Source of the DNA: Gammaproteobacteria bacterium
GTDB lineage: Bacteria; Pseudomonadota; Gammaproteobacteria; GCA-001735895
DNA length: 64,000 nt
Assembly (NCBI GenBank): GCA_029862125.1
Contig: JAOTXY010000010.1
Span: 41-64,040 of the forward strand
Direction: 5' to 3'
Position numbers and translations under genes: made by a program
Shown here: positions 5,911 through 32,698 of the stretch, in pieces
Position numbering within the stretch: the first letter of the stretch is position 1
Layout of the letters: the number at the start of each line of letters is the position of its first letter
Notes under the pieces: generated by a model
Seen by the model: the letters and a program-made list of their open reading frames with translations, nothing else
The model's database searches: none
What the model was told of the DNA's origin: nothing

Positions 5911-6830
5911 ATTTGCAGGCACTCGGGCTCGCGTCCGCGGACGACCCGTTTTCCTTTTAATTTGCCGTGCGTCTCGGTGACTACCGTATGTTGCCCTTCA
6001 CGGTGATGGTCGTCGTAAAAGTATATCACTACCCAATCGTGGACCCGGTTAAGATTGTGCGCCCGCGCCGTATTTGAATATAGCGCGGTGAAGTGCCAGT
6101 GATCGTAAGTGGTATGCAGGATCGGCAGCCAGGCCTTGTTTCGAGGATTGAAACGTCTCGGCGTAATCGCCGGCAAACTGCCAACCCTGGCCTTGGCACG
6201 GTACTCTTCGTCGACCTTTAGTATCAGTGTGACGTCAGGCATAACATCGTCTTGCCGCATTGGTTCGGGCCTGCGGCGCTGCTGATCGAGATGTTGCTGG
6301 AGCCAGCTCTCGATCGCTTCGCGACGCTTGGTGCCGAGGCCCTCGACCCTGGCGAGCTGACCACCGCGCACCGCGTTCTCAAGTGCTTCGAGACTTTCAA
6401 CATGCAAGGTGTCATGGATGCGTTCCGCCAGTGCCCTGCCAACCGTTGGAATCGAACGAAACAGGGCTACCGGATCGGCTGCACCCTTGAGATTCTCGAG
6501 GCGAGACATGCGACCGGTGGCAATGTACTCGTAGATTGAGCGCGCGATCCCCTCACCGATGCCGGGTAGAGCGATAAGGCCCTGTATGCCTTCTGCCTGC
6601 ATCAGTTCGGCAATGTTTTGCGGCATATTGTCCAGCGTATCGGCGGCGTGCAGGTAAGCGTTGCAGCGAAACGGGTTGGCATGCTGCGTATTAAGTAGTG
6701 CTGCTATTTCACGAAGTTTATTGGCCACTTCGTGGTTGAAGGCGTGCATCGTGCATTCCGCTCTATGTGCCTTGTTAAGGCAAAAATTATAATGCGATGA
6801 CTCAAAAAAGGTTTGATCTGAATCATCCAC
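5883..6830 (-). CDS. Helix-hairpin-helix DNA-binding domain protein (Pol X N-terminal-like)
   Basis: GIQGLIALPGIGEGIARSI and EGLGTKRREAI HhH-type motifs. The C-terminal approximately 120 aa (HDWVVIYFYDDHHREGQHTV...) has no recognised domain. The start is ambiguous (ATG 6830 or MHAFNH at 6749). The 3' end overlaps the convergent gene by 28 bp. Confidence 0.45.
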   Translation of the reverse strand: MDDSDQTFFESSHYNFCLNKAHRAECTMHAFNHEVANKLREIAALLNTQHANPFRCNAYLHAADTLDNMPQNIAELMQAEGIQGLIALPGIGEGIARSIYEYIATGRMSRLENLKGAADPVALFRSIPTVGRALAERIHDTLHVESLEALENAVRGGQLARVEGLGTKRREAIESWLQQHLDQQRRRPEPMRQDDVMPDVTLILKVDEEYRAKARVGSLPAITPRRFNPRNKAWLPILHTTYDHWHFTALYSNTARAHNLNRVHDWVVIYFYDDHHREGQHTVVTETHGKLKGKRVVRGREPECLQIYDPDSAGR

Positions 6831-6970
6831 ATAGGCGATAACAGGCGCGTTGAATCAACCTGGTAATGCGATGAAATTATATTAATGTATGGAATTGTTC
6901 GTTTGCCGGCAGATGTGCCCGGTAAAAAGTGTGAAGCAGATGCGTTTGATTCAGATTTGATTCAGGTAAA

Positions 6971-8620: not shown

Positions 8621-8629
8621 GAGTGCCCG

Positions 8630-9823
8630 TTGTTGACTGAAAACACGATAGCCGCCCATCCAGATATACCCGATGATAGGGATATCCTGGTTTGTATTTT
8701 TCAGCGCGGCGCGGCCGATGGCTTAAATGCGTTGGTGCCCTATTTTGATTCAGACTACTACGCTCATCGTACGTCGATCGCGGTGCCGGCACCGGACCCA
8801 TTGGACCCGCTTAATCTCAATAATGGTATACCGCTTACCAATTACTTTGACACGGTTCCGAATGGCTATGCGCTGCACCCGGCACTGCAGCTTATGGAAC
8901 AGGTTTACCTTGATGGTAATCTCGCGCTGGTGCACGCGACGGGGGTGCCGCACCAGATTCGTTCACATTTTTCTGCACAAAACCTGATCGAACGCGGGGT
9001 GATTGAAAAAACCGGTCCCAGTACCGGCTGGCTTGGTAGGCACCTGGCGTTTAGTTCACCGGCGACCGGTTCGGCGTTTCGCGCGATTTCGATCAGCGGT
9101 AACGTGCCAGTCGCGCTTGGCGGCGCGATAGAACCACTGGCGATCGATAACTTGAACGATTTCGGTTTTGATCAGGGTATCCTCGATTCGGGTTATCCGC
9201 AGGTGCTCACCGATTTGTTTCGCAACCCGATTCCCTTCTCCGGGCCTGCCGAGGCGGCACTCGCTGCAATGGATGAATTGCAGGCTGCAAACATTCCACC
9301 CGTCAATCAACCCTCCGACGCGGGTTATCCGAATACCGTGCTGGGCGGCAAACTGTTGCAGGCCGCACAACTGATTAAATCAAATATACCGGTTGAGGTT
9401 GTCTGCATTGATTCAGACGGTTGGGATCATCACCAGAATCTGCCGACCTATATCGGCCCGTCACTCACGGAACTAGCCGGTGCATTGCGTGCATTTTATG
9501 ACGACATGGGTCCTACCACCGGCATGCAACGCATCACGGTGCTGGTCTATACCGAGTTCGGGCGTCGAATCAAGCAAAACGGATCGCAAGGGACTGACCA
9601 TGGTACTGCAAGCTTGGCCTATTTGATGGGTGGTGGAGTCAATGGCGGCCAGGTCATTAGCGACTGGCCCGGGCTCGATATTGGTCAAAACGAGGATCTT
9701 CAAATTACCACCGATCTGCGGACGGTGATTACAGAAATGCTGGATAAGCGTCTCGGCGGCACCGATGTAGGAATCGTTTTTCCGGGATTTACAGTTCCCA
9801 CTTACGTAAACGCGTTTATATAA
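8630..9823 (+). CDS. DUF1501 family protein (sulfatase/alkaline-phosphatase-like fold)
   Basis: About 397 aa, 9 nt downstream of the DUF1800 gene. Motifs GAADGLN and DHHQN, and the SQGTDHGTAS metal-ligand-like motif, are typical of DUF1501. Confidence 0.6.
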   Translation: MLTENTIAAHPDIPDDRDILVCIFQRGAADGLNALVPYFDSDYYAHRTSIAVPAPDPLDPLNLNNGIPLTNYFDTVPNGYALHPALQLMEQVYLDGNLALVHATGVPHQIRSHFSAQNLIERGVIEKTGPSTGWLGRHLAFSSPATGSAFRAISISGNVPVALGGAIEPLAIDNLNDFGFDQGILDSGYPQVLTDLFRNPIPFSGPAEAALAAMDELQAANIPPVNQPSDAGYPNTVLGGKLLQAAQLIKSNIPVEVVCIDSDGWDHHQNLPTYIGPSLTELAGALRAFYDDMGPTTGMQRITVLVYTEFGRRIKQNGSQGTDHGTASLAYLMGGGVNGGQVISDWPGLDIGQNEDLQITTDLRTVITEMLDKRLGGTDVGIVFPGFTVPTYVNAFI

Positions 9824-9947
9824 GCCTGTTTTTAAGCTGGCCAATAGTCTTTATTAAACCTTGATTGCAGGCGGGTGTTTGCCTTGTGAATCACTACCGG
9901 CATGGCTATGATGCCTGGTCTAAGAAATTGAAAATACGAGGTTTGTC

Positions 9948-10883
9948 ATGAAAGTGTGTGTTCTCGGCGCCGCCGGTGGAATCGGCCAGCCGCTCTCCCT
10001 GTTACTCAAGTTACAACTGCCCGCGGGTAGCGAGCTGTCGCTTTACGACGTGGCACCTTTTACGCCCGGGGTTGCGGTCGATTTAAGTCATATCCCGACG
10101 GACGTCTGCGTTACCGGTTACGTCGGTGATGACGCCGAGGCTGCGATGAAGGATGCGGATATTGTCGTCATCCCGGCCGGCGTGCCGCGCAAGCCGGGAA
10201 TGACGCGTGACGACCTGTTTAACGTGAATGCCGGGATCGTCAAGAAGCTGATCGGTACGGGCGCGAAAGTCTGTCCCAATGCCTGTTTCGCAATCGTTAC
10301 AAACCCGGTCAACTCGACCGTACCCATCGCCGCCGAAGTGCTCAACGCTGCCGGGGTCTATGACAAGCGCAAATTGTTTGGAGTCACCACGCTCGACGTT
10401 ATCCGTTCCATCACCTTTGTCGCGCAAACTGCCGGCAAGAGCGTTGATGAAGTCAAGGTTGACGTGATTGGCGGCCACAGTGGCGTTACCATTCTGCCAT
10501 TGCTTTCGAGCGTTGACGGCGTGAAGCTGAGCCAATCGGAGATTGAAGCCCTGACACCCCGTATCCAGGAAGCCGGTACCGAAGTGGTCGAAGCCAAGGC
10601 AGGCGCCGGTTCGGCAACCCTTTCAATGGCGCAGGCCGCGGCTCGTTTCACCATGTCACTGGTTTCGGCAATGAATGGCGACTCTGTAACCGAGTGCTGC
10701 TACGTACAGGTTGGCGATGATACCCGCGCTTTCCATGCGCAACCAGTGGTGCTGGGCAAGGACGGAGTCGAATCGATCCCGCCGTTGCCTGCACTGAGCG
10801 ACTACGAAAAGAAATTACTGGATGAAATGCGGGGAACGCTGGAAGGCAATATCAACAAGGGTATCGAGTTCGCTAACGACTAG
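9948..10883 (+). CDS. mdh: Malate dehydrogenase (NAD-dependent, E. coli type)
   Basis: N-terminus [21 protein letters not shown]. Motifs [17 protein letters not shown] and [13 protein letters not shown] are the canonical gammaproteobacterial Mdh. Length is 311 aa. Confidence 0.95.
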
Positions 10884-10894
10884 AGGCACCGAAA

Positions 10895-11314
10895 ATGCGT
10901 TACGCAATACTATTGTTATCCGTACTACTCGTAGTTGGTTGTAGTTCCAAGAATGCGCGTGAAGATAGCGCCGAAATCATTACCAAAATAGGCGTCATTA
11001 CTGCCAGGGAAGACGCCAGCATGAACGATATCGAAAAAGACAAAAATACTAGTACCAGCGTTTATGGATCCGTTTCGTCCGGGAGCAGGGGCAGCAGCGT
11101 ATCGATTGGAATAGGTGTTTTGCTCTCGTCCTTTTTCTCCGGTGATTCCGATCAGGACCTGGTGCGTTACGAAGTTGACCTGAAAGACGGCGGTCAATTT
11201 ACGATTTATCACGACAGCCTCGATTTTGAAGTCGACGACTGTGTCGAGATTACCGTGCACCCGGACGAAGACAAGTATCCGCCGACCATGAAACGCAAAA
11301 AAGGGGCTTGCTAG
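10895..11314 (+). CDS. Hypothetical lipoprotein
   Basis: Lipoprotein signal MRYAILLLSVLLVVGCSS. A Ser/Gly-rich central segment follows. No recognised domain. Confidence 0.5.
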   Translation: MRYAILLLSVLLVVGCSSKNAREDSAEIITKIGVITAREDASMNDIEKDKNTSTSVYGSVSSGSRGSSVSIGIGVLLSSFFSGDSDQDLVRYEVDLKDGGQFTIYHDSLDFEVDDCVEITVHPDEDKYPPTMKRKKGAC

Positions 11315-11479
11315 ACCGCTTGCATGTTTGCTCATTCCAGCTTTGCAAGCTGTAACGGGACTGTGGTAGGTTTAATATCCTCGCCGCGCTGCGCAGGCTA
11401 GCGCGGCGGTCCGACGTATCGACATCATGATGCCATCAGGGAATGGATTCCGGAATGACCTAAGTGGTATGCTTTTACC

Positions 11480-12121
11480 ATGTCCGACGAGAAAATATCC
11501 AGCAATGAAGCCATCGATGCCGCGCTGCACCTCGATGGTAACCCGGAGCACGTTAAACAGTTCTACGAAGACTGGGCCAAAAATTACAATATTGATACCA
11601 CCGGTTCGGACTATACCGGGCCCACGATTGCGGCGAAACTGTTACATCAGCATTTAACGGTTAAAGACAGCGAACTGCTCGATGCTGGATGCGGCACCGG
11701 GCTGGTTGGTATCGAGTTACAGTCCCTCGGTTATATCAACGTCGATGGCTTTGATCTCTCAGACTCGATGGTTGAACTGGCCGCGGCAACCGGTGCCTAT
11801 CGACAGGTGCTGGGTAGTATCGACATGATGCGAGCCAGCGAAAGTTACCCGGCCGCAAGCTATGACGCGATTTTATCGGTCGGCGTTTTTACCCTTGGAC
11901 ATGTGCCACCCGAGGCGTTGCATGTATTGCTTGGGCTTACCAGGGCAGGTGGACTGTTGGTGATATCGACGCGCACGCATTACTACGACCAGACCAACTT
12001 CCAGCAGGTAGTCGACGAACTCACCGCGAGCCAGCAGGCCGAATTGATCCAGCTAATCAAGGATGCACCCTATAACAATGATGGTGATGGCCATTACTGG
12101 GTTTTCCGAAAATCAGGCTGA
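11480..12121 (+). CDS. Class I SAM-dependent methyltransferase
   Basis: Motif I LDAGCGTGLVGIEL. Length is 213 aa. Confidence 0.75.
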   Translation: MSDEKISSNEAIDAALHLDGNPEHVKQFYEDWAKNYNIDTTGSDYTGPTIAAKLLHQHLTVKDSELLDAGCGTGLVGIELQSLGYINVDGFDLSDSMVELAAATGAYRQVLGSIDMMRASESYPAASYDAILSVGVFTLGHVPPEALHVLLGLTRAGGLLVISTRTHYYDQTNFQQVVDELTASQQAELIQLIKDAPYNNDGDGHYWVFRKSG

Positions 12122-12231
12122 TCGGGTTCTGACAAAAGAATCTTTTACGATTGAATCCGAAGCCGAGTTTGAGTTAAATACGTCAGTCCTCCGGATTCCC
12201 GTCGACACAACGATTACTGGAGTAACTTTTC

Positions 12232-13380
12232 ATGCCGTCCAAGCGTTTGAATGTCATCAGTCACTGCGCCAAGTCACCATGGTTTTCCCGAACCTGGAGT
12301 GAAGGCGCTTTTTACGGCGAGTATGCCGGCCGCCTGGTACTGTTGTCGCTGGGAAACGATACGATCGAGGAATACTGGAAGCTGCGTAAAGCGGTTGGAC
12401 TGTTTGACGTGCCCGAGCGCCCGGTTGAAATCAAGGGCCGGGATGCCGTTAAATTCCTGAATCGCGTGCTTACGCGCCCAGTCGATAAACTTCGCGTTGG
12501 CCGCGGTAGCTACGGACTATTGTGCCACCAGGGTGGTGGCATGGTGTGCGATGGGATTTTATTCAAACTGGCCGAAGATCATTTCTGGTACGTGCACGCC
12601 GACGCCGATGTCTACCTGTGGCTGGTTGCGCATGCAGTCGATTACGCGGTTGAAATTCGCGACCCGCGGTCCTGGGTACTGCAGGTTCAGGGGCCGAAAT
12701 CGATGGCAGTGCTGGCCAATGCCTGCGATGACGGTGCACCTGAAGAATTTCGTTATTTCGACGTCTTCCAGGGGCACATGGGTGGACAGAAAGTGTTGGT
12801 CAGCCGTACTGGCTGGTCGGCGGAACTGGGCTTTGAAGTATATAATATGGATCCCGATGTCGATGGCCCGGCGCTTTGGGATCACCTGATGGCCGCAGGT
12901 GCCGACAGCGGCATCGCCGGTTGCGGGCAGATGTCGATGAATATACGGCGCATCGAAGGCGGCATCCTCAACTATCGCAGCGACATGGACTGGGATACGA
13001 CGCCTTACGATATGGGGCTTGGCATGTTTGTTGATCTTGAGGGCCACGATTTTATCGGCCGGGATGCCCTGTGCAATGCCAGCAGGGAGCCTCGCTTTTG
13101 CGGCTTTAAATGTGAGGATCGGCAAATCAGGTTTGGTTCCGCGGTCCAGTCGAATGGTCAGTCGGTGGGTCGCGTAACGGCCTACGAGATTTCGCCTTAC
13201 CTGGAATGCGGCGTTGGTTTCGTGTTGCTCGACTCGCCCGAGTATATGGGTGCGACTGGACTCAGTATTATCGATCGGGATGGCGACGTATGTCCGGTGG
13301 AGTTGGTAGAGCTGCCTTTTTACGATGCTGAGAAGAACATTCCGCGCGGCCTCGAACCGACCGATGGCGGAATCGATTAA
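12232..13380 (+). CDS. GcvT-family aminomethyltransferase (folate-dependent demethylase; DmdA-like)
   Basis: GcvT-family hallmarks: VGLFDV, RTGWSAELGFEVY and IGRDAL. Size of about 380 aa and the blocks SR[TS]GWS...GFE[VI]Y / RIE.G.L.Y..DM...TP.. / GLG.F...E.IGRDAL resemble DMSP demethylase DmdA and other single-domain GcvT homologs. Substrate cannot be assigned from sequence. Confidence 0.65.
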   Translation: MPSKRLNVISHCAKSPWFSRTWSEGAFYGEYAGRLVLLSLGNDTIEEYWKLRKAVGLFDVPERPVEIKGRDAVKFLNRVLTRPVDKLRVGRGSYGLLCHQGGGMVCDGILFKLAEDHFWYVHADADVYLWLVAHAVDYAVEIRDPRSWVLQVQGPKSMAVLANACDDGAPEEFRYFDVFQGHMGGQKVLVSRTGWSAELGFEVYNMDPDVDGPALWDHLMAAGADSGIAGCGQMSMNIRRIEGGILNYRSDMDWDTTPYDMGLGMFVDLEGHDFIGRDALCNASREPRFCGFKCEDRQIRFGSAVQSNGQSVGRVTAYEISPYLECGVGFVLLDSPEYMGATGLSIIDRDGDVCPVELVELPFYDAEKNIPRGLEPTDGGID

Positions 13381-13397
13381 CAGGAGGAATCGGGAAC

Positions 13398-14150
13398 ATG
13401 TCGAACTTTGCAGGAAAAGTTGCCTTTGTCACCGGCGCCGGTGGCGGCATGGGATTTCAGATTGCCAGTGACCTGATTAACGCTGGCGCCAGCGTGTTGA
13501 TGTTCGATATCAAACCCGAACCCGGGGATATTCCGGGTAGCCCGGATCAATCACTTTACCTGCAGGCCGATTTAACCGATGAGCCTGTCGTAGCCGCCGC
13601 GGTTGAAAAGGCGGTTGAATTATTTGGTGGTATCGATTTGCTTGCAAACGTGGCGGGCGCACTGTGGTTTGACCGAGATAAAACCGCGCTCGAAATCGAC
13701 CTGGATGTGTGGGACCAGGTGATGGCAATCAACCTGAAAAGCATGGTGCACACCACGCGGCATGTCGTGCCGCAGATGCGCAAACGCGGTGGGGGTGCCA
13801 TGGTGCATTTTTCGTCGACGCAATGCATGCGCGGTGATTCCGCACCCCAGGACGCCTACCAGGCCGCCAAGGCTGGCGTGGTGGCGTTTTCCAAGTCGCT
13901 GGCTATTCAGTTGGCAGCTGAAAACATTCGCTCCAACGTGATTTATCCGGGGCCCAGTGAGTCGCCGATGCAGGATCGCTGGAAACAGAATCCCGGTGCC
14001 CAGGCCGCCACGGCCAGTGCGATACCTTTGGGACGCGTTGGCACGGTCGAAGATATGTCGAATGCCTGTCTGTTTTTACTTTCTGAAAAGGCTTCCTTTA
14101 TTACCGGCACCGAGTTACTGGTCGATGGTGGTTTGCAGGCAAAACCGTGA
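13398..14150 (+). CDS. SDR family NAD(P)-dependent oxidoreductase
   Basis: TGAGGGMG glycine-rich motif and YQAAK catalytic motif. Length is 250 aa. Confidence 0.85.
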   Translation: MSNFAGKVAFVTGAGGGMGFQIASDLINAGASVLMFDIKPEPGDIPGSPDQSLYLQADLTDEPVVAAAVEKAVELFGGIDLLANVAGALWFDRDKTALEIDLDVWDQVMAINLKSMVHTTRHVVPQMRKRGGGAMVHFSSTQCMRGDSAPQDAYQAAKAGVVAFSKSLAIQLAAENIRSNVIYPGPSESPMQDRWKQNPGAQAATASAIPLGRVGTVEDMSNACLFLLSEKASFITGTELLVDGGLQAKP

Positions 14151-14211
14151 TTTTACCCCGCAGTTAAAAATTCTGGCATAGTAGGCTTTCGTTTCAGTTT
14201 GAGATGAAGCA

Positions 14212-14967
14212 ATGACTTCCAGAATTTCAATATTGATTACCGGTGCGTCGGGTGGGATAGGCCGCGCGGCCGCTATCGAATGCGCGCAGCGTGGTGCCAG
14301 GATAGGTGTTCACTATAACGGTAATCGCGAACGTGCCGAGTCAACGCTCGCCGCGCTGGCGGGAGATGGTCACCAGTTGTTTCAATGCGACATTACCGAT
14401 CCGGTCGCAGCGCAACAACTGATCGAAGATGCGAACCAGGTCCTCGATGGCCTCGATGTGCTGGTGAACAATGCCGGCATCTCGCAGCGCCATCAGTTCG
14501 ACGAGATCGACTATGCCACCTGGCAGCAAACCTGGCAGCGTATTGTCAACACCAACCTGACTGCAGCGAGTAACCTGTGCTTTTTAGCAGGCAAAAAAAT
14601 GATTGCTGCCGGTGGCGGACGAATTGTCAATGTATCGTCGCGCGGGGCATTTCGCGGTGAACCGCTGATGCCCTGGTACGGCGCGTCCAAGGCCGGTATG
14701 AATGCAATGGGCCAATCGCTGGCGCAGGCACTGGGCCCGAAAGGAGTGTTTGTTTATACCGTCGCACCCGGCTTTGTCGAGACTGAAATGGCCGCGGCAG
14801 TGCTGGCCTCACCTGAAGGTGACAATATCAGGAACCAAAGCAGTATCGGTCGGGTGGCGCAACCCGGGGAACTCGGTAAAACGATTGGATTTCTCGCTTT
14901 TGAAGCGCCCGAATTCATGACCGGTTGCATCGTCGATGTCAACGGCGCGTCCTACCTGCGATCCTGA
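14212..14967 (+). CDS. SDR family oxidoreductase (3-oxoacyl-ACP reductase-like)
   Basis: TGASGGIGRAAA and NNAG motifs. YGASKAG catalytic Tyr/Lys. The stop overlaps the next start (TGATG at 14965-14969). Confidence 0.85.
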   Translation: MTSRISILITGASGGIGRAAAIECAQRGARIGVHYNGNRERAESTLAALAGDGHQLFQCDITDPVAAQQLIEDANQVLDGLDVLVNNAGISQRHQFDEIDYATWQQTWQRIVNTNLTAASNLCFLAGKKMIAAGGGRIVNVSSRGAFRGEPLMPWYGASKAGMNAMGQSLAQALGPKGVFVYTVAPGFVETEMAAAVLASPEGDNIRNQSSIGRVAQPGELGKTIGFLAFEAPEFMTGCIVDVNGASYLRS

Positions 14968-16073
14968 TGGAATACGACTTTATCGTTGCCGGTGGCGGCC
15001 TGGTTGGATCATCGATTGCCTACGGGCTCGCCCGGCAGAAATACAAGGTGGCGGTGCTTGACGGTGGTGATCGCTCGTTTCGCGCCTCGCGCGGTAACTT
15101 CGGCCTGGTATGGGTGCAGGGCAAGGGCTGGGATTATGCACCCTACGCGCAATGGACCGGGCAGGCCGCCGACCTGTGGCCACAATTTGTGGCAGAACTT
15201 GTCAATGAAACCGGGGTAGAGATCGATTACCAGCGCTCAGGCGGCATGCATTTTTGCCTGAACGAGGCAGAGTGGAGAGAACGTGAGCGCGAAATGGAAA
15301 TGGTTCGTCAACACACGGGCGGAGCATTCGAATATGAAATGCTGGACCATGATCGACTGCAACAGCAAATTCCACAAGTTTCGAATACGGTTCTGGGTGC
15401 GAGCTATTCACCGCAGGATGGTCACGTCAATCCGCTCTACTTACTGCAGGCGTTGCAGCAAGGTATGGACGCTCACCAGGTGCATTATTACCCCAATCAG
15501 TCGATCGATCGAATCGAGGCGAAGCAGGGTGGTTTTTATACTCACTCCACCGAGGGTACGTTGTCTGCCGAGAAAGTCGTGCTCTGTGCCGGGCTCGACA
15601 ATCGGCGCCTCGGTGAAATGCTGGGCATGGATATTCCCGTCGTCGTCGATCGCGGCCAGATCATGATTACCGAACGGCTGCAACCGTTTCTGAACCTGCC
15701 GACGCTGCATGTGCGTCAGACTGCGGAAGGTACCGTGCAAATCGGGTATTCCCACGAGGATGTGGGCCTCGACGACGGTACCAGCCCGTCGGTATTGAAA
15801 AAGATAGCCCGGCGCGCGGTGTTAATGTTTCCGTTCCTGGCGCGTGTGCAACTGGTGCGCGCCTGGGGCGCACTGCGAATCATGACGCCGGACCATAACC
15901 CGATATACCAGCAATCTACCGACTGTCCGGGTGCGTTTACCGTCACCTGTCATAGTGGCGTCACCCTTGCTGCAATGCACTCCGGACCGGTTGCTGAATG
16001 GATAGGCGGTAGCAGTCGGCCTGATCTTATCAACCAGTTCAGTACAGACCGGTTCAATGTTTCGCCTGGTTGA
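14967..16073 (+). CDS. FAD-dependent oxidoreductase, DAO family (beta subunit of HcnC/OoxB/LhpB-type heteromeric dehydrogenase)
   Basis: MEYDFIVAGGGLVGSSIAYGLA dinucleotide-binding motif at the chosen ATG. About 368 aa. Immediately followed, with overlaps, by a 2Fe-2S small subunit and an HcnB-like subunit. Confidence 0.75.
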   Translation: MEYDFIVAGGGLVGSSIAYGLARQKYKVAVLDGGDRSFRASRGNFGLVWVQGKGWDYAPYAQWTGQAADLWPQFVAELVNETGVEIDYQRSGGMHFCLNEAEWREREREMEMVRQHTGGAFEYEMLDHDRLQQQIPQVSNTVLGASYSPQDGHVNPLYLLQALQQGMDAHQVHYYPNQSIDRIEAKQGGFYTHSTEGTLSAEKVVLCAGLDNRRLGEMLGMDIPVVVDRGQIMITERLQPFLNLPTLHVRQTAEGTVQIGYSHEDVGLDDGTSPSVLKKIARRAVLMFPFLARVQLVRAWGALRIMTPDHNPIYQQSTDCPGAFTVTCHSGVTLAAMHSGPVAEWIGGSSRPDLINQFSTDRFNVSPG

Positions 16074-16359
16074 TGAAACAAGTGTCGATACGCTGAAGCT
16101 GAGTATCGAGGGTCGTGAATACGATGTTCCGGTCGGTATTTCGGTTGCCGCGGCGGTTTTGCTGTGTGGCATCACCAGGCTGCGCAATACCCCCGTGTCC
16201 GGTTCTCCGCGATTGCCCTATTGCATGATGGGCATTTGTTTCGATTGCCTGATGACCATCGACGGGTTTCCCAACCAGCAGGCCTGCCAGCTCGAGGTTC
16301 GTGAAAACATGACAATCGAGATTCAGCAGGGTGCGGCAGAACTGCTGCAGCAAAGATGA
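16057..16359 (+). CDS. (2Fe-2S)-binding small subunit (HcnA/LhpE-like gamma subunit)
   Basis: 100 aa with Cys cluster CMMGICFDC. Overlaps the upstream gene by 17 nt and the downstream gene by 4 nt (ATGA), implying translational coupling of a three-subunit enzyme. Confidence 0.7.
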   Translation: MFRLVDETSVDTLKLSIEGREYDVPVGISVAAAVLLCGITRLRNTPVSGSPRLPYCMMGICFDCLMTIDGFPNQQACQLEVRENMTIEIQQGAAELLQQR

Positions 16360-17747
16360 AGGACCATTACCAGTTACTCGTGATCGGTGCCGGGCCGGCG
16401 GGCCTCGCCGCGGCCGCGGAGGCTGCCCGCCTTGGCCTGGATGTCGCCCTGGTGGATGAGCAAAAGGCGCCGGGTGGACAAATCTACCGTAATGTTGGAT
16501 CGATTCAGGAACCTGTCAGTACTTACCTGGGAAAAGACTACCTGCGGGGCAAGCCATTGGTTGAAGAGTTTCTGCAAAGTGGCGCGACCTACATCAACAG
16601 TGCCTCGGTATGGTATCTCGATGAGCGCCTCGAGACCGGATTGTTGATCGATGGCGCCAGCCATTTCATCACCGCGGAGCGATTGATTCTGGCCACTGGC
16701 GCCCAGGAAAGGCCTATGCCATTGCCCGGTTGGCAGCTGCCTGGTGTTATGACAGCAGGCGCGGGACAGATTCTACTCAAATCCGCGGCGATGATTCCCA
16801 GTAGACGGGTAGTGCTGGCGGGGAGCGGTCCATTACTGCTACTAATAGCCTGGCAGTACCTGCAGGTCGGGGTAAAAATTGGCGCAATTATTGATACCAC
16901 GCCGGGTTCAGGTTTTTCCAAGTTACTACCTTACCTACCCCGTGCGCTACCGGCTTTTGACTACCTGCTCAAGGGTCTGTCATTCATACTCGCCATCAAA
17001 AAGGCGGGGATACCCGTTTATAAAGCGGTGGCTGATCTGCGCGCCGAAGGCCATGAGTCGCTGGAGTCGGTGAGTTTTACTACAGGCCTGGGAGATGGTA
17101 ACAAAAGAACAGAAATCGACATGGAAGCCGAGACCTTGTTATTGCACCAGGGTGTGATCCCAAATTTACGCCTGCCGCTGGCCGCCGGCTGTGAGCTTGA
17201 ATGGGATGCGCTGCAGCAAAGTTGGAAAATAGTCAAAGATATATGGGGTCAGAGTAGTGTTGACCAGGTGCTGGTGGCTGGGGATTGCGCGGGTATCGTC
17301 GGTGCCCGTGCAGGCGAGTTGCAGGGCAGGTTATGCGCCTTACAGGCCGCCCATCAATTAAAGAAGATCGATCTGCAACCGCGTGATAGAGCGGCGACGC
17401 GGATAAAACGTTCGCTACAAAGACATCTTTCGATCCGACCTTTTCTGGACACACTTTATCCGCCGGCAAAGGCCTACCAACTGCCCGATGATGAAACACT
17501 GGTGTGTCGCTGCGAGGAAGTTAATGCCGGACAAATACGCGAGGCCGCACGCATGGGTTGCGTCGGACCCAACCAGGTGAAAGCCTTTACCCGCTGTGGT
17601 ATGGGCCCTTGCCAGGGGTGTCTATGCGGCAGCACGGTATCGGCATTGATCGCGGACGAAACGGGTGCTTCGATGGAACAGGTTGGATATTTCCGGGTGC
17701 GGCCACCCTTCAAGCCGATCACTCTCGGTGAACTTGCGAATACCTAG
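16356..17747 (+). CDS. NAD(P)/FAD-dependent oxidoreductase alpha subunit (HcnB/OoxA/LhpF-like) with BFD-like [2Fe-2S] domain
   Basis: IGAGPAGLAAAAEAARLG FAD motif. A second nucleotide-binding motif VLAGSGPLLL. C-terminal CRCEEV...C..GPCQGCLC Cys-rich BFD-like motif. Length is 463 aa. Confidence 0.75.
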   Translation: MKDHYQLLVIGAGPAGLAAAAEAARLGLDVALVDEQKAPGGQIYRNVGSIQEPVSTYLGKDYLRGKPLVEEFLQSGATYINSASVWYLDERLETGLLIDGASHFITAERLILATGAQERPMPLPGWQLPGVMTAGAGQILLKSAAMIPSRRVVLAGSGPLLLLIAWQYLQVGVKIGAIIDTTPGSGFSKLLPYLPRALPAFDYLLKGLSFILAIKKAGIPVYKAVADLRAEGHESLESVSFTTGLGDGNKRTEIDMEAETLLLHQGVIPNLRLPLAAGCELEWDALQQSWKIVKDIWGQSSVDQVLVAGDCAGIVGARAGELQGRLCALQAAHQLKKIDLQPRDRAATRIKRSLQRHLSIRPFLDTLYPPAKAYQLPDDETLVCRCEEVNAGQIREAARMGCVGPNQVKAFTRCGMGPCQGCLCGSTVSALIADETGASMEQVGYFRVRPPFKPITLGELANT

Positions 17748-17878
17748 CCGTATTTATCCGGACCGAATGTCAAAGTAACAGATGGGCCAGGCTACAACAG
17801 CAATCTGTAACAGCAGGATATTCAGAAACAGGAAAATTGTTTGGTGATCAAACCCTGAACATGCCACACTAAATCACT

Positions 17879-19300
17879 ATGGAAGGCACCGTATCATTAC
17901 CGATCTGGTTGTTTATCCTGTTACTGGTTACCGCCTTGTTGCTGGTGCTGGATCGGATCCTGTTACCGGGATTTCGCTGGTATTTGCGGCGTCGCGTCAA
18001 TCGCGTCATCGAGGAAGTTAATACCCGGCTAGATATCGAGATCAGGCCTTTTCAGCTGACGCGCAAGCAGGCGTTGATTGACCAGCTGGTGTTTGATGAC
18101 AAGGTGGTAGCGGCGATGAAGGAATACGCGGCCGAACACAATATGCCGAAGGAAGTGGTGCAGGCGAAAGTTTTTCGCTATGCGAACGAAATTGCGCCTT
18201 CGTTCAATGCCTACATTTATTTCCGCTTCGGTTACTGGCTTGCGAAAACACTGGGACGCATGCTTTACCGGGTGCGGGTCGGGTTTCATGACGAGGGCGA
18301 ACTGTCACAAGTTGACCCGAACGCGAGCGTCGTATTTGTCATGAATCATCGCAGCAACATGGATTATGTACTGGTGTCATTCCTGGTTGCTGAAAAAACC
18401 GCGCTGTCCTACGCGGTCGGTGAATGGGCCAGGATCTGGCCGTTGCAGTCGTTGATAAAATCGATGGGTGCTTTTTTTGTGCGCCGTAACTCGCGTAACC
18501 CGCTCTATCGACGAGTGCTGGAGCGCTATGTGAATCTCGCCACGCGCGCCGGTGTATGCCAGGCCGTGTTCCTCGAGGGAGGGCTGACGCGCGATGGAGC
18601 ACTACGCGAGCCCAAGCAGGGTTTTCTGGACTACATGCTGCGTGACTATCGTGCTGGCAGTGATCGCGACGTCGTTTTCGTGCCGGTGGGCATTAATTAC
18701 GACCGCGTGCTGGAAGACATGAGCCTGGTACGAAAACTCGATCCGGAGGCTGAAACCAGAAGCCCCTGGTTTGTTGTAAAAACGAGTTTTAAATTTGGTT
18801 TGAAAACGCTTTTAATGAGTCGCAAAAAACGCTGGCTAAGGTTCGGCTATGCCAGTGTCAATTTTGGTAAGCCGGTATCGGTTTTTGAGTATTGCCAACA
18901 GCACAACGTCAACCTGTCTGAACTGGACCAGGCCAGGCGTTTTCAGCACATTGAAGAGCTCAGTCACCAGTTGATGGATGAAATTGCCGACGTGGTGCCG
19001 GTGTTACCGATCGCGTTAATGAGCGAAGTGGTACTTGCCAATCAGTCTGACTGGCTCAGCGAACTGGGAGCCAAGACAGTGGCCGTCGCGCGCATCGAGG
19101 ACCTGCATGCGCGGGGGGCGCCGATAAGAATATCGGCTAACGCTTGCGAAGATGTATTGACGGCGGCGCTTTCAATGCTCGAAGGACGTGGATTTATCGA
19201 ACGCAGGGAAGGTCTCATTCGAGCCAGGTCGGAGGCACTGGATATATTGAATTATTACGCCAATTCAATAAAACAATGGCAAACAGGAGCATCGTCTTGA
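17879..19300 (+). CDS. Glycerol-3-phosphate/lysophospholipid acyltransferase family protein (PlsB-like, HX4D motif)
   Basis: N-terminal TM helix. Acyltransferase catalytic motif VMNHRSNMDY (H-x4-D). FLEGGLTRDG block III-like motif. 473 aa, shorter than E. coli PlsB. Confidence 0.55.
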   Translation: MEGTVSLPIWLFILLLVTALLLVLDRILLPGFRWYLRRRVNRVIEEVNTRLDIEIRPFQLTRKQALIDQLVFDDKVVAAMKEYAAEHNMPKEVVQAKVFRYANEIAPSFNAYIYFRFGYWLAKTLGRMLYRVRVGFHDEGELSQVDPNASVVFVMNHRSNMDYVLVSFLVAEKTALSYAVGEWARIWPLQSLIKSMGAFFVRRNSRNPLYRRVLERYVNLATRAGVCQAVFLEGGLTRDGALREPKQGFLDYMLRDYRAGSDRDVVFVPVGINYDRVLEDMSLVRKLDPEAETRSPWFVVKTSFKFGLKTLLMSRKKRWLRFGYASVNFGKPVSVFEYCQQHNVNLSELDQARRFQHIEELSHQLMDEIADVVPVLPIALMSEVVLANQSDWLSELGAKTVAVARIEDLHARGAPIRISANACEDVLTAALSMLEGRGFIERREGLIRARSEALDILNYYANSIKQWQTGASS

Positions 19301-19411
19301 GTAGGATCCTGATTTCGAGATCGACCGCCGGGATCGCGTTGTACCGGGTTGATAGATTGCCCAAACCTTCATTGCCCGGTGTGAGAGCCCTGAATGGGTC
19401 CCCGGCAGCCG

Positions 19412-20296
19412 TTAGCGGCTGATGCGGTTCTCGATCGGCGGCAGGGCAAGAAGGTAGTCGATCAGCGCGTCGCGGTCTGCCGGGGTCAGGTGTCGGATGC
19501 CTTCAATCACCGGGTCCATCGACCCGACGGCATACTCGCCATTTGGTAGCTCGCCGAATTGTAAAAACTCCCGTAGGCTCGCCCGACTCCAGTCACCGAT
19601 GCCGGTACCCTTGTGGGACGTAATGTTGGGTACCAGCTCGTCTTCCGGGCCGTGTGAATTGCCGGCGTAGGCCAGTTCCGTTTGCATGGCACCAAACAGG
19701 TTGCGCGGCGTATGACATTCACCGCAATGCGCCAGGGCTTCGGCAATATAAGCGCCCCGATTCCATTGCGCGCTCTGTGCGGGCTGTGGTGGTAGTTCCC
19801 CGGGGCTGAAGAACAGCCATTTCCAGGCCCAGGCGGCAGTCCGCCAGTCTACAAACCATGCCAGCTCATGGTCGCGGTTCGGTTGTTCCGATGCGGGCAG
19901 CGATAGAATGTAAGCCTGCAATGCGCGAACATCTGCTTCGAGCATGCGGGTATAAGAGGTGTAAGGAAATGCCGGATAGTAGTCGTTGCCATTCGGTGAC
20001 ACGCCATGGTGTAGCGCACGCTGGAAGTCGTCAGCACTCCACGCACCGATACCCGCGCTCTTGTGGGAGGTTATGTTGGGGGTATAAAAGGTTCCAAAAG
20101 GTGTCACGAGCGCCCGCCCTCCTGCCAGCTGCACGCCGTTTTCGGCAGTATGACAATGGCTGCAACCACTGATCTTTAAAATGTATTCCCCACGCGCAAG
20201 CAATTTTTTGTCGGCCTGCGTTTGCGCGCTAGCACACCATGATGATGCCGCGATGAGCACGCCCACCGCAGCGAGTAAACGCGGTGCCAGGATCAT
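19412..20296 (-). CDS. Diheme c-type cytochrome (dehydrogenase cytochrome-subunit-like), signal peptide
   Basis: Two CxxCH motifs (CSHCH, CGECH). N-terminal signal peptide LLAAVGVLIAASSWCASA. Confidence 0.75.
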   Translation of the reverse strand: MILAPRLLAAVGVLIAASSWCASAQTQADKKLLARGEYILKISGCSHCHTAENGVQLAGGRALVTPFGTFYTPNITSHKSAGIGAWSADDFQRALHHGVSPNGNDYYPAFPYTSYTRMLEADVRALQAYILSLPASEQPNRDHELAWFVDWRTAAWAWKWLFFSPGELPPQPAQSAQWNRGAYIAEALAHCGECHTPRNLFGAMQTELAYAGNSHGPEDELVPNITSHKGTGIGDWSRASLREFLQFGELPNGEYAVGSMDPVIEGIRHLTPADRDALIDYLLALPPIENRISR

Positions 20297-30680: not shown

Positions 30681-30682
30681 AT

Positions 30683-31678: not shown

Positions 31679-31690
31679 GTTTTTACTCCC

Positions 31691-32608: not shown

Positions 32609-32698
32609 GGCACACCTCCATTAATAGAACGCGCCATCATGCCATGGATTGCGGGATTGTGATTGCATTAATGCGCAAAATATTTAACAATTTACGCA

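What the first reader, a model, noticed from the sequence alone, without database searches (positions are those of the whole stretch)
11480..17747. Unassigned demethylation/oxidation gene set: SAM-MTase, DmdA-like GcvT protein, two SDRs and an LhpBEF/HcnCAB-type three-subunit flavo-iron-sulfur dehydrogenase
Seven co-oriented genes with short gaps and three translationally coupled overlaps. The single-domain GcvT-family enzyme resembles DMSP demethylase DmdA in conserved blocks. The beta(FAD)-gamma(2Fe-2S)-alpha(HcnB-like) order matches heteromeric amino-acid, opine or imino-acid dehydrogenases such as D-hydroxyproline dehydrogenase. This combination, next to osmolyte catabolism and a sulfur-oxidation island, could be a pathway for an N- or S-methylated compatible solute (DMSP, N-methylproline/stachydrine, hydroxyproline betaine). 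The sequence alone does not identify the substrate.
Basis: inference. Interest (0 to 1): 0.6.

Follow-up and report, generated by a model that had tools for sequence, protein, structure and literature searches.

The report
Mosaic demethylase and dehydrogenase gene cluster
The seven genes exist as described, but related genomes show three separable parts (an orphan methyltransferase, a DmdA-related folate-dependent demethylase with its reductases, and an imported three-subunit amine dehydrogenase), not one dedicated pathway, and the substrates remain unknown.

Summary
Seven co-oriented genes at 11480-17747 carry the stated domains, with gaps of 110, 17 and 61 nt and three overlaps.

The single-pathway reading is only partly supported. 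About 30 related uncultured marine gammaproteobacterial genomes, including the Olavius Gamma3 symbiont, share the backbone mdh-lipoprotein-MT-GcvT-like-SDR2-PlsB-like. SDR1 and beta-gamma-alpha are each present in only 7 of 21 informative loci. Elsewhere beta-gamma-alpha is a self-contained unit with a LysR regulator, a transporter and RidA.

The GcvT-like protein is not housekeeping GcvT. It fails the curated GcvT, DmdA and Tdm thresholds. In a small neighbour-joining tree its clade is sister to DmdA, and it shares DmdA's substrate-contact Trp. Its nearest outside relatives sit in AidB-like/GcvT-like/ADP-forming CoA ligase/S-oxide reductase operons.

Best reading: a DmdA-type tetrahydrofolate methyltransferase acting on a methyl-onium carboxylate (DMSP-like or a betaine), followed by SDR step(s), with an opine/D-hydroxyproline-dehydrogenase-type enzyme acquired separately.

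No substrate is established. These are new members of known families, of moderate interest.

The parts
11480..12121 (+). MT: 213-aa class I SAM-dependent methyltransferase. It is METTL27-like and restricted to this lineage, and is probably its own transcription unit.
   Evidence: Pfam Methyltransf_23/11/25. Best solved relative is METTL27 at 86 bits. Only 522 homologues were found, all at >=64% identity in the top 120. Absent from L002, L018 and L022.
12151..12179 (+). Conserved promoter-like element, TTGAAT-17 nt-TTAAAT, about 55 nt upstream of the GcvT-like start codon.
   Evidence: The block is alignable in most of the 19 upstream regions compared, including L002 and L022, which lack MT. 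It was not picked up by the strict consensus scan. A promoter function is inferred, not shown.
12232..13380 (+). GcvT-like protein: 382-aa member of an unnamed GcvT-superfamily clade, sister to DmdA in a small tree. Putative tetrahydrofolate-dependent methyltransferase/demethylase.
   Evidence: GCV_T + GCV_T_C domains. Below all curated cutoffs. Tree and bootstraps. W195, E202 and Y204 align with DmdA W197, E204 and Y206. At least 587 related loci were confirmed in species-representative genomes.
13398..14150 (+). SDR1: classical FabG-like short-chain dehydrogenase (TGxxxGxG motif, YxxxK motif). Variable accessory gene.
   Evidence: Present in 7 of 21 informative related loci.
14212..14967 (+). 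SDR2: classical FabG-like SDR (TGxxxGxG, NNAG, YxxxK). It is the most conserved gene of the block and the near-constant partner of the GcvT-like gene in this lineage.
   Evidence: Identity is 75-98% across the lineage, and it is present in 20 of 21 loci.
14967..16073 (+). beta subunit: 368-aa DAO-family FAD catalytic subunit. Its start ATG overlaps the SDR2 stop codon.
   Evidence: DAO at 184.8 bits. GxGxxG at residue 9 and R298-A-W300. Start codon reasoning. About 50% identical to beta subunits of LysR-transporter-beta-gamma-alpha-RidA units.
16057..16359 (+). gamma subunit: 100-aa [2Fe-2S] protein.
   Evidence: Fer2_4 at 81.6 bits. Cys motif C56-x4-C61-x2-C64-x12-C77.
16356..17747 (+). alpha subunit: 463-aa FAD/NAD(P)-binding subunit with a C-terminal BFD-like/SO_alpha_A3 Cys cluster.
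   Evidence: Pyr_redox_2, SO_alpha_A3 and Fer2_BFD. GxGxxG at residue 11. Cys pattern C384-x-C386-x27-C414-x4-C419. Best solved relative is the P. horikoshii L-proline dehydrogenase alpha subunit, 1y56.
9948..11314 (+). Upstream backbone, not part of the module: malate dehydrogenase (9948-10883) and a 139-aa lipoprotein (10895-11314).
   Evidence: Ldh_1_N/C domains. Lipobox LVVGC. Syntenic in the lineage.
17879..19300 (+). Downstream backbone: PlsB/GPAT-like acyltransferase. In relatives that lack beta-gamma-alpha it directly follows SDR2.
   Evidence: Acyltransferase + GPAT_C domains. Adjacent to SDR2 in L008, L010, L021, L025, L026 and L027.

Best explanation
The block is a lineage-specific mosaic of three separable modules sitting on a conserved chromosomal backbone (DUF1800-DUF1501-mdh-lipoprotein ... 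PlsB-like-cytochromes).

(1) MT is an orphan METTL27-like SAM-methyltransferase with its own transcription unit.

(2) The core is a GcvT-superfamily enzyme from an unnamed clade plus one or two FabG-like SDRs, expressed from a conserved promoter-like element. The clade is sister to DmdA, not to GcvT. The most likely chemistry is DmdA-type: direct transfer of a methyl group from a methyl-onium carboxylate (a sulfonium such as DMSP, or a quaternary ammonium betaine) to N5 of tetrahydrofolate, giving 5-methyl-THF. An NAD(P)-dependent SDR step on a hydroxy or oxo group of the substrate or product would follow.

(3) beta-gamma-alpha is a flavin/[2Fe-2S] dehydrogenase of the opine dehydrogenase / D-hydroxyproline dehydrogenase family. 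It oxidises the C-N bond of a secondary amine or imino acid to an imine and passes the electrons to the respiratory chain. It was acquired as a self-contained catabolic module. In this genome it has become translationally coupled to SDR2.

Shown: gene content, family placement, sequence motifs, and the variable presence of the modules. Inferred: methyl transfer rather than aminomethyl transfer, the class of substrate, the role of the SDRs, and co-transcription.
For: Modularity:
- Across 21 informative related loci, SDR2 is present in 20, SDR1 in 7 and beta-gamma-alpha in 7. MT is present in 18 of 21.
- In L013 a LysR regulator and an ABC transporter lie between SDR2 and beta. The transporter's binding protein is nearest to PotD and agropine-binding proteins.
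- Plasmid homologues of beta (~50% identity) sit in LysR-transporter-beta-gamma-alpha-RidA units.
- A conserved TTGAAT-17-TTAAAT element lies upstream of the GcvT-like gene, including in loci that lack MT.

GcvT-like placement:
- It is below the curated cutoffs for GcvT, DmdA and Tdm, as are 10 other members of the family.
- NJ bootstraps: family versus the four references 172/200; DmdA + family versus GcvT + Tdm 177/200; GcvT references apart 200/200.
- W195 aligns with the DmdA Trp named as the DMSP-contact residue (W171 in PMC7487153). GcvT and Tdm have Tyr at that position.

Substrate class:
- The window lineage forms a 200/200 clade with proteins that sit in tight AidB-like ACAD / GcvT-like / ADP-forming CoA ligase / BisC-type S- or N-oxide reductase operons.
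- More distant members sit next to BetI-type and GbdR-type regulators, APC permeases and an MTHFR-like gene.
- The window itself encodes carnitine, dimethylglycine and sarcosine catabolism and MetY.

beta-gamma-alpha family motifs are present (PMC4575208).
Against: - No experiment or expression data were available.
- All GcvT-like/SDR2 adjacency comes from one lineage in which the flanking housekeeping genes are syntenic too. The pairing could therefore be inherited rather than functional.
- Outside the lineage the GcvT-like protein is never next to an SDR.
- The tree uses only four reference sequences (a single DmdA) and neighbour-joining.
- The Trp is one residue.
- The SDR2/beta stop-start overlap, kept in the closest relatives (L005, L006, L019, probably L039), argues for co-expression and possibly cooperation in this sub-lineage.
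- One distant locus (L062) independently has alpha-gamma-beta within 5 kb of a GcvT-like gene.
Confidence: 0.55

Rival explanations
1. One integrated pathway. All six or seven genes act on one N- or S-methylated osmolyte, for example a proline or hydroxyproline betaine. The GcvT-like enzyme removes methyl groups to THF, beta-gamma-alpha oxidises the resulting imino acid, and the SDRs process hydroxy/oxo intermediates.
For: - Tight spacing and the TGATG coupling of SDR2 to beta in the window, kept in the closest relatives.
- L062 (Rhodospirillaceae) has alpha-gamma-beta, an APC permease, a GcvT-like gene and a GbdR-type regulator together.
- The window's closest relatives have gained beta-gamma-alpha and lack the FadH-like flavoprotein OYE680. 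That gene is fragmented in L012, which has beta-gamma-alpha.
- Methylated-amine catabolism is encoded in the same window.
Against: - beta-gamma-alpha is absent from 14 of 21 related loci that keep GcvT-like and SDR2.
- It has its own regulator and transporter in L013.
- It forms autonomous units elsewhere.
- Only 1 of about 50 distant GcvT-like loci has it nearby.
- No hydroxyproline epimerase, pyrroline-carboxylate deaminase or semialdehyde dehydrogenase gene types lie in the block.
- OYE680 and beta-gamma-alpha co-occur in L013 and L039, so a simple replacement is not established.
Confidence: 0.2
2. The GcvT-like protein is a C1-capture partner. Like the GcvT-like domains of SoxA, DMGDH and Tdm, it binds THF and traps the iminium or formaldehyde released by a separate amine dehydrogenase. 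Here that would be beta-gamma-alpha, a sarcosine oxidase 'split' into Fer2_4 + SoxA-N + GcvT pieces. The product would be 5,10-methylene-THF.
For: - Its best NCBIfam hit is the C-terminal THF domain of TMAO demethylase (189 bits).
- gamma + alpha + GcvT-like together resemble a split SoxA. The alpha subunit hits TIGR01372 residues 166-354 and carries the SO_alpha_A3 domain.
Against: - The GcvT-like gene is present without beta-gamma-alpha in two thirds of the related loci.
- In the tree Tdm is not its nearest reference (Tdm + family 6/200).
- The window already has complete SoxBDAG and a DAO-GcvT fusion, each with its own THF domain.
- Free-standing members of the superfamily that have been characterised (DmdA, LigM, DesA) are direct methyltransferases. 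This last point is established knowledge, not a result obtained here.
Confidence: 0.1
3. SDR2 belongs functionally with the downstream PlsB/GPAT-like acyltransferase in lipid metabolism, for example a ketoacyl or acyl-DHAP-type reduction. It sits next to the GcvT-like gene only by inherited synteny. The 'cluster' would then be a string of unrelated backbone genes.
For: - SDR2 is the most conserved gene of the block (75-98% identity) and is FabG-like.
- It directly precedes the PlsB-like gene in L008, L010, L021, L025, L026 and L027.
- The whole region from DUF1800 to the cytochromes is syntenic, including mdh.
Against: - Insertions (beta-gamma-alpha, MFS, DksA-like and others) repeatedly fall between SDR2 and the PlsB-like gene. 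Between GcvT-like and SDR2 the inserts are SDR1, minus-strand genes (NnrU in L013, others in L012, L026 and L027) and apparently the whole separation seen in L018.
- The gap between the GcvT-like gene and the next SDR is only 17 nt in the window.
Confidence: 0.12
4. The GcvT-like protein is simply the housekeeping glycine-cleavage T-protein.
For: Same Pfam domains. About 30% identity to GcvT structures.
Against: - It fails both GcvT models: 181.5 against 300, and 135.5 against 235.85.
- GcvT references are separated from it in 200/200 bootstraps.
- No gcvH or gcvP gene lies next to it.
- It has Trp where GcvT has Tyr.
Confidence: 0.02

Closest known systems
DmdA (DMSP demethylase; P. ubique structure 3tfh, R. 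pomeroyi SPO1913)
   Same: Free-standing GCV_T + GCV_T_C protein of about 370-380 aa. It is the nearest reference in the tree (177/200). The Trp at the DMSP-contact position and the Glu/Tyr of the folate site are conserved (PMC7487153). Like dmdA-acuI in roseobacters, the gene is followed by a reductase gene (PMC5395565).
   Different: Only 26.6% identity. It scores 176.8 bits against the curated cutoff of 410. No dmdB, dmdC or dmdD/acuH lies next to it. The adjacent reductase is an SDR, not the MDR-type AcuI. The substrate is untested.
Glycine-cleavage T-protein GcvT
   Same: Same fold family and same Pfam domains. About 30% identity. The Asp of the catalytic region is conserved.
   Different: Fails both curated GcvT models. 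Forms a separate clade. No gcvH or gcvP neighbours. Trp in place of the GcvT Tyr.
Flavin-containing opine dehydrogenase OdhBCA and D-hydroxyproline dehydrogenase LhpBEF (PMC4575208)
   Same: beta-gamma-alpha gene order with overlapping ORFs. Two N-terminal GxGxxG motifs. The gamma Cys4 motif. The R-x-W motif in beta. A Cys cluster in alpha. In L013 it is linked to an opine/polyamine-type ABC transporter.
   Different: The alpha Cys spacing is C-x-C-x27-C-x4-C, not x15-20. The closest homologues (~50%) are uncharacterised LysR-transporter-RidA units, not Oox/Nox or Lhp. There are no opine synthase or hydroxyproline-pathway neighbours. In the window there is no transporter, regulator or RidA.
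Hydrogen cyanide synthase HcnABC
   Same: The same three protein types: a small 2Fe-2S protein, a Pyr_redox_2 subunit and a DAO subunit.
   Different: From established knowledge of the hcnABC operon, the gene order there is A-B-C (gamma-alpha-beta). Here it is beta-gamma-alpha. No test for glycine oxidation to HCN was possible.
Heterotetrameric sarcosine oxidase SoxBDAG
   Same: beta resembles SoxB. gamma + alpha resemble the N-terminal half of SoxA. The free GcvT-like protein resembles the SoxA C-terminal domain.
   Different: All scores are far below the family cutoffs (63 against 529 for SoxB; 137 against 1164 for SoxA). A genuine soxB-(D)-A-G set lies at 58009-63243 in the same window.
AidB-like ACAD / GcvT-like / ADP-forming CoA ligase / BisC-type reductase operon of roseobacters and other marine bacteria (uncharacterised; Ruegeria atlantica, L087)
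   Same: Its GcvT-like protein is the closest relative outside the window lineage (52-60% identity; joint clade 200/200).
   Different: Completely different neighbours. The window lineage has SDRs in place of the ligase, ACAD and molybdoenzyme. The only ligase of that family in the window (34% identity) lies 14 kb away in the carnitine cluster.

Membership tests
GcvT (glycine cleavage T-protein) | Reaches the curated family score (TIGR00528 235.85 bits; PRK00389 300 bits) | tested here: not met
   135.5 and 181.5 bits.
GcvT (glycine cleavage T-protein) | Groups with bona fide GcvT in a phylogeny | tested here: not met
   T. maritima and B. subtilis GcvT split from everything else in 200/200 NJ bootstraps. 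Only two GcvT references were used.
GcvT (glycine cleavage T-protein) | Genomic linkage to gcvH/gcvP | tested here: not met
   The neighbours are MT, SDRs, mdh and a lipoprotein. The rest of the genome is not visible.
GcvT (glycine cleavage T-protein) | H-protein-dependent aminomethyl transfer giving 5,10-methylene-THF | not testable with these tools
   Needs an enzyme assay.
DmdA (DMSP demethylase) | Reaches the curated equivalog score (PRK12486, 410 bits) | tested here: not met
   176.8 bits. The Olavius Gamma3 orthologue scores 168.6.
DmdA (DMSP demethylase) | Trp at the DMSP-contact position (W171 in PMC7487153, which is W197 in chain 3tfh) | tested here: met
   W195 aligns with it and is invariant in the 14-sequence family alignment. 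GcvT and Tdm have Tyr.
DmdA (DMSP demethylase) | Falls inside the DmdA clade | tested here: inconclusive
   The family is sister to the single DmdA reference (177/200), at 26.6% identity. DmdA clades A-E and the published 'non-DmdA' clades were not available for comparison.
DmdA (DMSP demethylase) | Linkage to dmdB/dmdC/dmdD-acuH or acuI | tested here: not met
   None is adjacent. Relatives outside the lineage are linked to a non-homologous CoA ligase and an ACAD.
DmdA (DMSP demethylase) | DMSP-dependent formation of 5-methyl-THF and MMPA | not testable with these tools
   Needs an enzyme assay.
Heteromeric flavin/[2Fe-2S] amine dehydrogenases (OdhBCA opine DH, LhpBEF D-Hyp DH) | beta-gamma-alpha gene order with overlapping reading frames | tested here: met
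   beta 14967-16073, gamma 16057-16359, alpha 16356-17747. Overlaps of 17 and 4 nt.
Heteromeric flavin/[2Fe-2S] amine dehydrogenases (OdhBCA opine DH, LhpBEF D-Hyp DH) | ADP-binding GxGxxG at the N-termini of beta and alpha | tested here: met
   beta G9-GGLVG and alpha G11-AGPAG.
Heteromeric flavin/[2Fe-2S] amine dehydrogenases (OdhBCA opine DH, LhpBEF D-Hyp DH) | gamma subunit motif C-x4-C-x2-C-x11~12-C | tested here: met
   C56-x4-C61-x2-C64-x12-C77.
Heteromeric flavin/[2Fe-2S] amine dehydrogenases (OdhBCA opine DH, LhpBEF D-Hyp DH) | alpha subunit motif C-x-C-x15~20-C-x4-C | tested here: inconclusive
   C384-x-C386-x27-C414-x4-C419. The four Cys are present but the spacer is longer. Pfam Fer2_BFD (37 bits) and SO_alpha_A3 (41 bits) do match.
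Heteromeric flavin/[2Fe-2S] amine dehydrogenases (OdhBCA opine DH, LhpBEF D-Hyp DH) | R-x-W (putative FMN site) in beta | tested here: met
   R298-A-W300.
Heteromeric flavin/[2Fe-2S] amine dehydrogenases (OdhBCA opine DH, LhpBEF D-Hyp DH) | Specific substrate (nopaline/octopine, or D-hydroxyproline), with matching pathway genes nearby | tested here: not met
   No opine synthase, hydroxyproline epimerase, deaminase or semialdehyde dehydrogenase domain types in the block. The activity itself is not testable here.
Heterotetrameric sarcosine oxidase | SoxB/SoxA family scores and the presence of delta and gamma subunits | tested here: not met
   beta scores 63 against 529; alpha scores 137 against 1164. 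The true soxB-A-G set is at 58009-63243.

The most novel reading that the evidence does not exclude
The GcvT-like protein would found an uncharacterised family of tetrahydrofolate-dependent onium-compound demethylases, sister to DmdA. The family is found in at least 587 loci from species-representative genomes. It would provide an alternative route for demethylating DMSP, DMSOP or a betaine. In sulfur-oxidising sediment and symbiont Gammaproteobacteria it is paired with an SDR. In roseobacters it is paired with an ADP-forming CoA ligase, an AidB-like dehydrogenase and an S-oxide reductase. A more speculative variant is that MT + SDR + GcvT-like form a methylation/demethylation cycle around a DMSP-pathway hydroxy acid such as MTHB/DMSHB.
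Probability: 0.25. Interest if true: 0.65.

Novelty: new member of a known kind. Interest (0 to 1): 0.38.

Why it matters
Demethylation of DMSP and betaines controls how much marine sulfur and nitrogen leaves as DMS, methanethiol or methylamines.

Curated DmdA models miss this clade. Loose BLAST criteria would call it 'dmdA'. It is common in coastal-sediment sulfur oxidisers and in the Gamma3 symbiont of gutless worms.

Knowing its true substrate would correct gene-based budgets of organosulfur and osmolyte cycling in sediments.

The practical lesson of this analysis is that the seven-gene 'operon' should not be treated as one pathway when annotating these genomes.

Tried and rejected
- Riboswitch or other known RNA upstream: an Rfam scan of 9500-19500 at E<=1 found nothing.
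- Consensus promoter/terminator scan: counts were no higher than in shuffles. The conserved element was found only by aligning orthologous upstream regions.
- AlphaFold model of the GcvT-like protein from the 14-sequence alignment: mean pLDDT 62 and pTM 0.54. This is too poor for a fold search, so it was not used.
- OYE680, the 680-aa flavoprotein divergent from MT in relatives, as an N-methylproline or dimethylglycine demethylase (StcD/DgcA-like): rejected as the leading idea. Its best solved relatives are 2-naphthoyl-CoA reductase (215 bits) and 2,4-dienoyl-CoA reductase (191 bits), ahead of histamine dehydrogenase and trimethylamine dehydrogenase (130 and 125 bits).
- MFS gene inserted in some relatives as the substrate importer: rejected. 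It is a Bcr/CflA-type efflux pump.
- MT homologue search for an informative context outside the lineage: the family is small (522 hits) and lineage-restricted, so it gave no lead.
- Equating the CoA ligase next to related GcvT-like genes with the published roseobacter 'DddX-like' DMSP lyase (PMC13543886): could not be tested, because that sequence was not obtainable. DddX itself is only one of several equally distant solved relatives.
- Equating this gene with the 'dmdA' reported for the Gamma3 symbiont (bioRxiv 10.64898/2025.12.05.692484): unresolved. Their E-value threshold (<=1.7e-54 to R. pomeroyi DmdA) may exclude it.
- The DmdA structure paper (Schuller 2012) was not held, so only one substrate-contact residue could be checked.
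- The first bootstrap attempt, using rooted-clade matching, gave meaningless supports. It was redone with bipartitions.

Full report
**What is in the sequence.**
- MT (11480-12121) is a generic class I SAM-methyltransferase.
- The GcvT-like protein (12232-13380) is a 382-aa single-domain GCV_T + GCV_T_C protein.
- SDR1 (13398-14150) and SDR2 (14212-14967) are two classical SDRs.
- The last three genes encode a DAO-family protein, a 100-aa Fer2_4 protein (16057-16359) and a Pyr_redox_2 + SO_alpha_A3/BFD protein (16356-17747).

The DAO gene most plausibly starts at ATG 14967, overlapping the SDR2 stop as TGATG. That gives 368 aa, like its orthologues. The gaps are 110, 17 and 61 nt and the overlaps are 1, 17 and 4 nt.

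Two qualifications matter. Twelve consecutive genes (6971-19300), including malate dehydrogenase, share the strand, so co-orientation is not evidence of a unit. Two of the three overlaps are a family trait of beta-gamma-alpha enzymes (PMC4575208).

**Context in the window.**
- Downstream at 24.5-35.5 kb is a carnitine/gamma-butyrobetaine cluster. It holds carnitine dehydrogenase, a BKACE cleavage enzyme, an ADP-forming CoA ligase, an acyl-CoA dehydrogenase, a crotonobetainyl-CoA hydratase-like protein, acetoacetate-CoA ligase, a GbdR-like regulator and ETF.
- At 41-52 kb is a sulfur-oxidation island. SoxY ends in GGCGG, and there are FccB-like flavoproteins and c-type cytochromes.
- At 52-63 kb are a DAO-GcvT fusion (dimethylglycine dehydrogenase-like), MetY and a genuine soxB-(D)-A-G sarcosine oxidase.

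**Comparative genomics.** A pattern scan of species-representative genomes found at least 587 loci encoding relatives of the GcvT-like protein. About 30 loci at 68-95% identity come from uncultured marine Gammaproteobacteria, including the Olavius algarvensis Gamma3 endosymbiont (L021).

In these loci the whole region is syntenic: DUF1800-DUF1501-mdh-lipoprotein-[OYE680, opposite strand]-MT-GcvT-like-[SDR1]-SDR2-[beta-gamma-alpha]-[MFS]-PlsB-like-cytochromes.

| Gene | Present in informative loci |
|---|---|
| SDR2 | 20 of 21 (>=4 kb downstream) |
| SDR1 | 7 of 21 (>=4 kb downstream) |
| beta-gamma-alpha | 7 of 21 (>=4 kb downstream) |
| MT | 18 of 21 (>=3 kb upstream) |
| OYE680, intact | 12 of 21 (>=3 kb upstream) |

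OYE680 is a 680-aa FMN/Fe-S flavoprotein that is absent from the window. It is in three frame-shifted pieces in L012, which could be real decay or long-read error.

In L013 a LysR regulator and an ABC transporter sit between SDR2 and beta. The transporter's binding protein is closest to PotD and to an agropine-binding protein. The best annotated homologues of beta (~50% identity; Agrobacterium pAt plasmid, Oceanisphaera plasmid) lie in LysR-transporter-beta-gamma-alpha-RidA units.

So beta-gamma-alpha behaves as a self-contained, mobile catabolic module. It has been inserted after SDR2 in one sub-lineage, the one closest to the window.

MT has only 522 detectable homologues, all of this lineage. 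Its only informative solved relative is METTL27, whose substrate is itself unknown.

Aligning the regions upstream of the GcvT-like gene shows a conserved TTGAAT-17 nt-TTAAAT block (12151-12179). It is kept even in loci without MT. This suggests that the GcvT-like/SDR unit has its own promoter and that MT is transcribed separately.

**What the GcvT-like protein is.** It scores about equally, and below every curated cutoff, on all three relevant models:

| Model | Score (bits) | Cutoff (bits) |
|---|---|---|
| TMAO demethylase THF domain | 189 | 1100 |
| GcvT (PRK00389) | 181.5 | 300 |
| DmdA (PRK12486) | 176.8 | 410 |

Ten other members of the wider family behave the same way.

Identity to solved references is 29.5% and 31.7% (GcvT), 26.6% (DmdA) and 31.1% (Tdm).

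In a neighbour-joining tree with 200 bipartition bootstraps:
- the family is monophyletic against the four references (172/200);
- DmdA is its sister (177/200);
- the two GcvT references are apart (200/200).

The tree has few references and is not maximum likelihood, so 'sister to DmdA' is provisional.

W195 is invariant in the family alignment. It aligns with the DmdA Trp described as the DMSP-specific contact (PMC7487153). GcvT and Tdm have Tyr at that position. The folate-site Glu and Tyr are conserved.

Membership of DmdA is not established either.

**Clues to the substrate class.** The window lineage forms a 200/200 clade with proteins of 52-63% identity. In most of these, the gene is followed by an overlapping 700-aa ADP-forming CoA ligase. 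This holds in Ruegeria atlantica, Paracoccaceae, Thalassospira, sponge symbionts, Litorivicinus and other Gammaproteobacteria. In most of them the gene is also preceded by an AidB-like acyl-CoA dehydrogenase and followed by a cytoplasmic BisC/TorA-type S- or N-oxide reductase, with a divergent LysR in Ruegeria atlantica.

That ligase family is 34% identical to the ligase of the window's carnitine cluster. It is as close to the DMSP lyase DddX as to any other solved enzyme.

More distant members (43-49% identity) sit beside BetI-type and GbdR-type regulators, APC permeases and an MTHFR-like gene. In Hyphomicrobium they sit beside flavin-dependent monooxygenases.

Taken together, the family looks like demethylases of methylated onium carboxylates or related methylated compounds. 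The sulfonium (DMSP-like) and quaternary ammonium (betaine) options are both open.

A preprint reports 'dmdA' in the Gamma3 symbiont, found by BLAST against R. pomeroyi DmdA (bioRxiv 10.64898/2025.12.05.692484). I could not establish whether that is this gene.

**The dehydrogenase.** beta-gamma-alpha carries the defining features listed for flavin-containing opine dehydrogenase and D-hydroxyproline dehydrogenase (PMC4575208):
- gene order with overlaps;
- GxGxxG at both N-termini;
- the gamma motif C56-x4-C61-x2-C64-x12-C77;
- R298-A-W300 in beta.

The alpha subunit has a four-Cys cluster with a longer spacer (C384-x-C386-x27-C414-x4-C419). Its best solved relative is the Pyrococcus L-proline dehydrogenase alpha subunit.

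It is a member of that enzyme family. Nothing identifies the substrate. No hydroxyproline or opine pathway genes accompany it, and in the window it lacks the regulator, transporter and RidA seen elsewhere.

**How it most likely works.** The core GcvT-like enzyme probably transfers a methyl group from an onium carboxylate directly to THF, giving 5-methyl-THF, as DmdA does. One or two SDRs then oxidise or reduce a hydroxy/oxo function of the substrate or product. These steps are inferred.

The three-subunit enzyme oxidises a secondary amine or imino acid to an imine and donates electrons to the respiratory chain. This follows from established knowledge of the family.

In this genome the stop-start overlap of SDR2 and beta means they are probably co-expressed. 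Cooperation in this sub-lineage is therefore possible, but it is not required by the comparative data. I put 0.55 on this modular reading.

Rival readings:

| Reading | Confidence |
|---|---|
| Single integrated pathway | 0.20 |
| SDR2 actually belonging with the PlsB-like gene | 0.12 |
| C1-capture partner role | 0.10 |
| Housekeeping GcvT | 0.02 |

**Novelty and interest.** Every component belongs to a known family. What is new is an uncharacterised DmdA-sister clade with a lineage-specific SDR partner, and one more uncharacterised member of the opine/D-Hyp dehydrogenase family. The seven-gene combination is a local mosaic, not a conserved system. Interest is moderate (0.38).

The most interesting lead lies outside the window. 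It is the conserved AidB-like/GcvT-like/ADP-forming ligase/S-oxide reductase operon of roseobacters and other marine bacteria.

Noticed in passing
L087 6180-13367 (Ruegeria atlantica); also L033-L038 and L030: A tight, overlapping operon: AidB-like acyl-CoA dehydrogenase, GcvT-like protein (52-60% identical to the window protein), a 700-aa ADP-forming CoA ligase, and a cytoplasmic BisC/TorA-type S- or N-oxide molybdoreductase. A divergent LysR was seen in Ruegeria atlantica (L087). The operon is conserved across roseobacters, Thalassospira, sponge symbionts and Gammaproteobacteria, and it is abundant in marine metagenomes. It looks like an uncharacterised route for demethylating and CoA-activating an onium carboxylate (DMSP- or DMSOP-like?).
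   Followed up: partly
window 24488-35509: A complete-looking carnitine/gamma-butyrobetaine catabolic cluster. It holds acetoacetate-CoA ligase, a crotonobetainyl-CoA hydratase-like protein, an ADP-forming CoA ligase, an acyl-CoA dehydrogenase, carnitine dehydrogenase, a BKACE cleavage enzyme, a GbdR-like regulator and ETF alpha/beta.
   Followed up: partly
window 52381-63243: An 893-aa DAO-GcvT fusion (dimethylglycine dehydrogenase-like, minus strand), MetY (O-acetylhomoserine sulfhydrylase) and a genuine soxB-(D)-A-G sarcosine oxidase. No known glycine betaine demethylase (GbcAB, BHMT, MtgB) was recognised among the ORFs scanned in the window, but not every ORF was scanned.
   Followed up: partly
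window 41040-52010: A sulfur-oxidation island. It has two TAT-signal FccB/SQR-like flavoproteins (41040-42323 and 49942-51312), SoxY ending in GGCGG (42395-42862) and several mono- and di-haem c-type cytochromes.
   Followed up: partly
L001 7074-9116 (minus strand); homologues in 12 related loci; absent from the window: A 680-aa FMN/Fe-S/FAD flavoprotein lies divergent from MT-GcvT-like in many relatives. It is closest to 2-naphthoyl-CoA reductase and 2,4-dienoyl-CoA reductase. It is absent from the window's nearest relatives and is in three frame-shifted pieces in L012, which has beta-gamma-alpha. This may reflect loss after the gain of beta-gamma-alpha, or it may be sequencing error.
   Followed up: partly
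window 12151-12179: A conserved TTGAAT-17 nt-TTAAAT block upstream of the GcvT-like gene. It is alignable across most lineage members compared, including those without MT. The consensus promoter scan missed it because the second hexamer lacks A at position 2.
   Followed up: yes
L062 2694-12953 (uncultured Rhodospirillaceae): An independent co-location of alpha-gamma-beta (43-48% identical to the window subunits), an APC permease, a weakly MTHFR-like ORF, a GcvT-like gene (46%), a GlxA/GbdR-type regulator and a BetI-type regulator. It is the only distant locus that links the two modules.
   Followed up: partly
L060 and L061 about 5100-13800 (Hyphomicrobium): The GcvT-like homologue (45%) is embedded in a co-oriented set: FMN reductase, two luciferase-like monooxygenases, an SfnB-like ACAD-fold protein, an amino-acid permease and an FAD-NAD(P)-binding protein. 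The set is reminiscent of two-component monooxygenase systems for methylated sulfur or amine compounds.
   Followed up: no
window 10895-11314: A 139-aa predicted lipoprotein (lipobox LVVGC) with no family match lies 12 nt after mdh. It is conserved in position across the lineage but diverges fast (40-96% identity).
   Followed up: no
L020 814-4721: In one relative (74% identity) the GcvT-like gene is followed by a cystathionine beta-synthase (PALP + CBS domains) in place of an SDR. This hints at a link to homocysteine/methionine metabolism.
   Followed up: no
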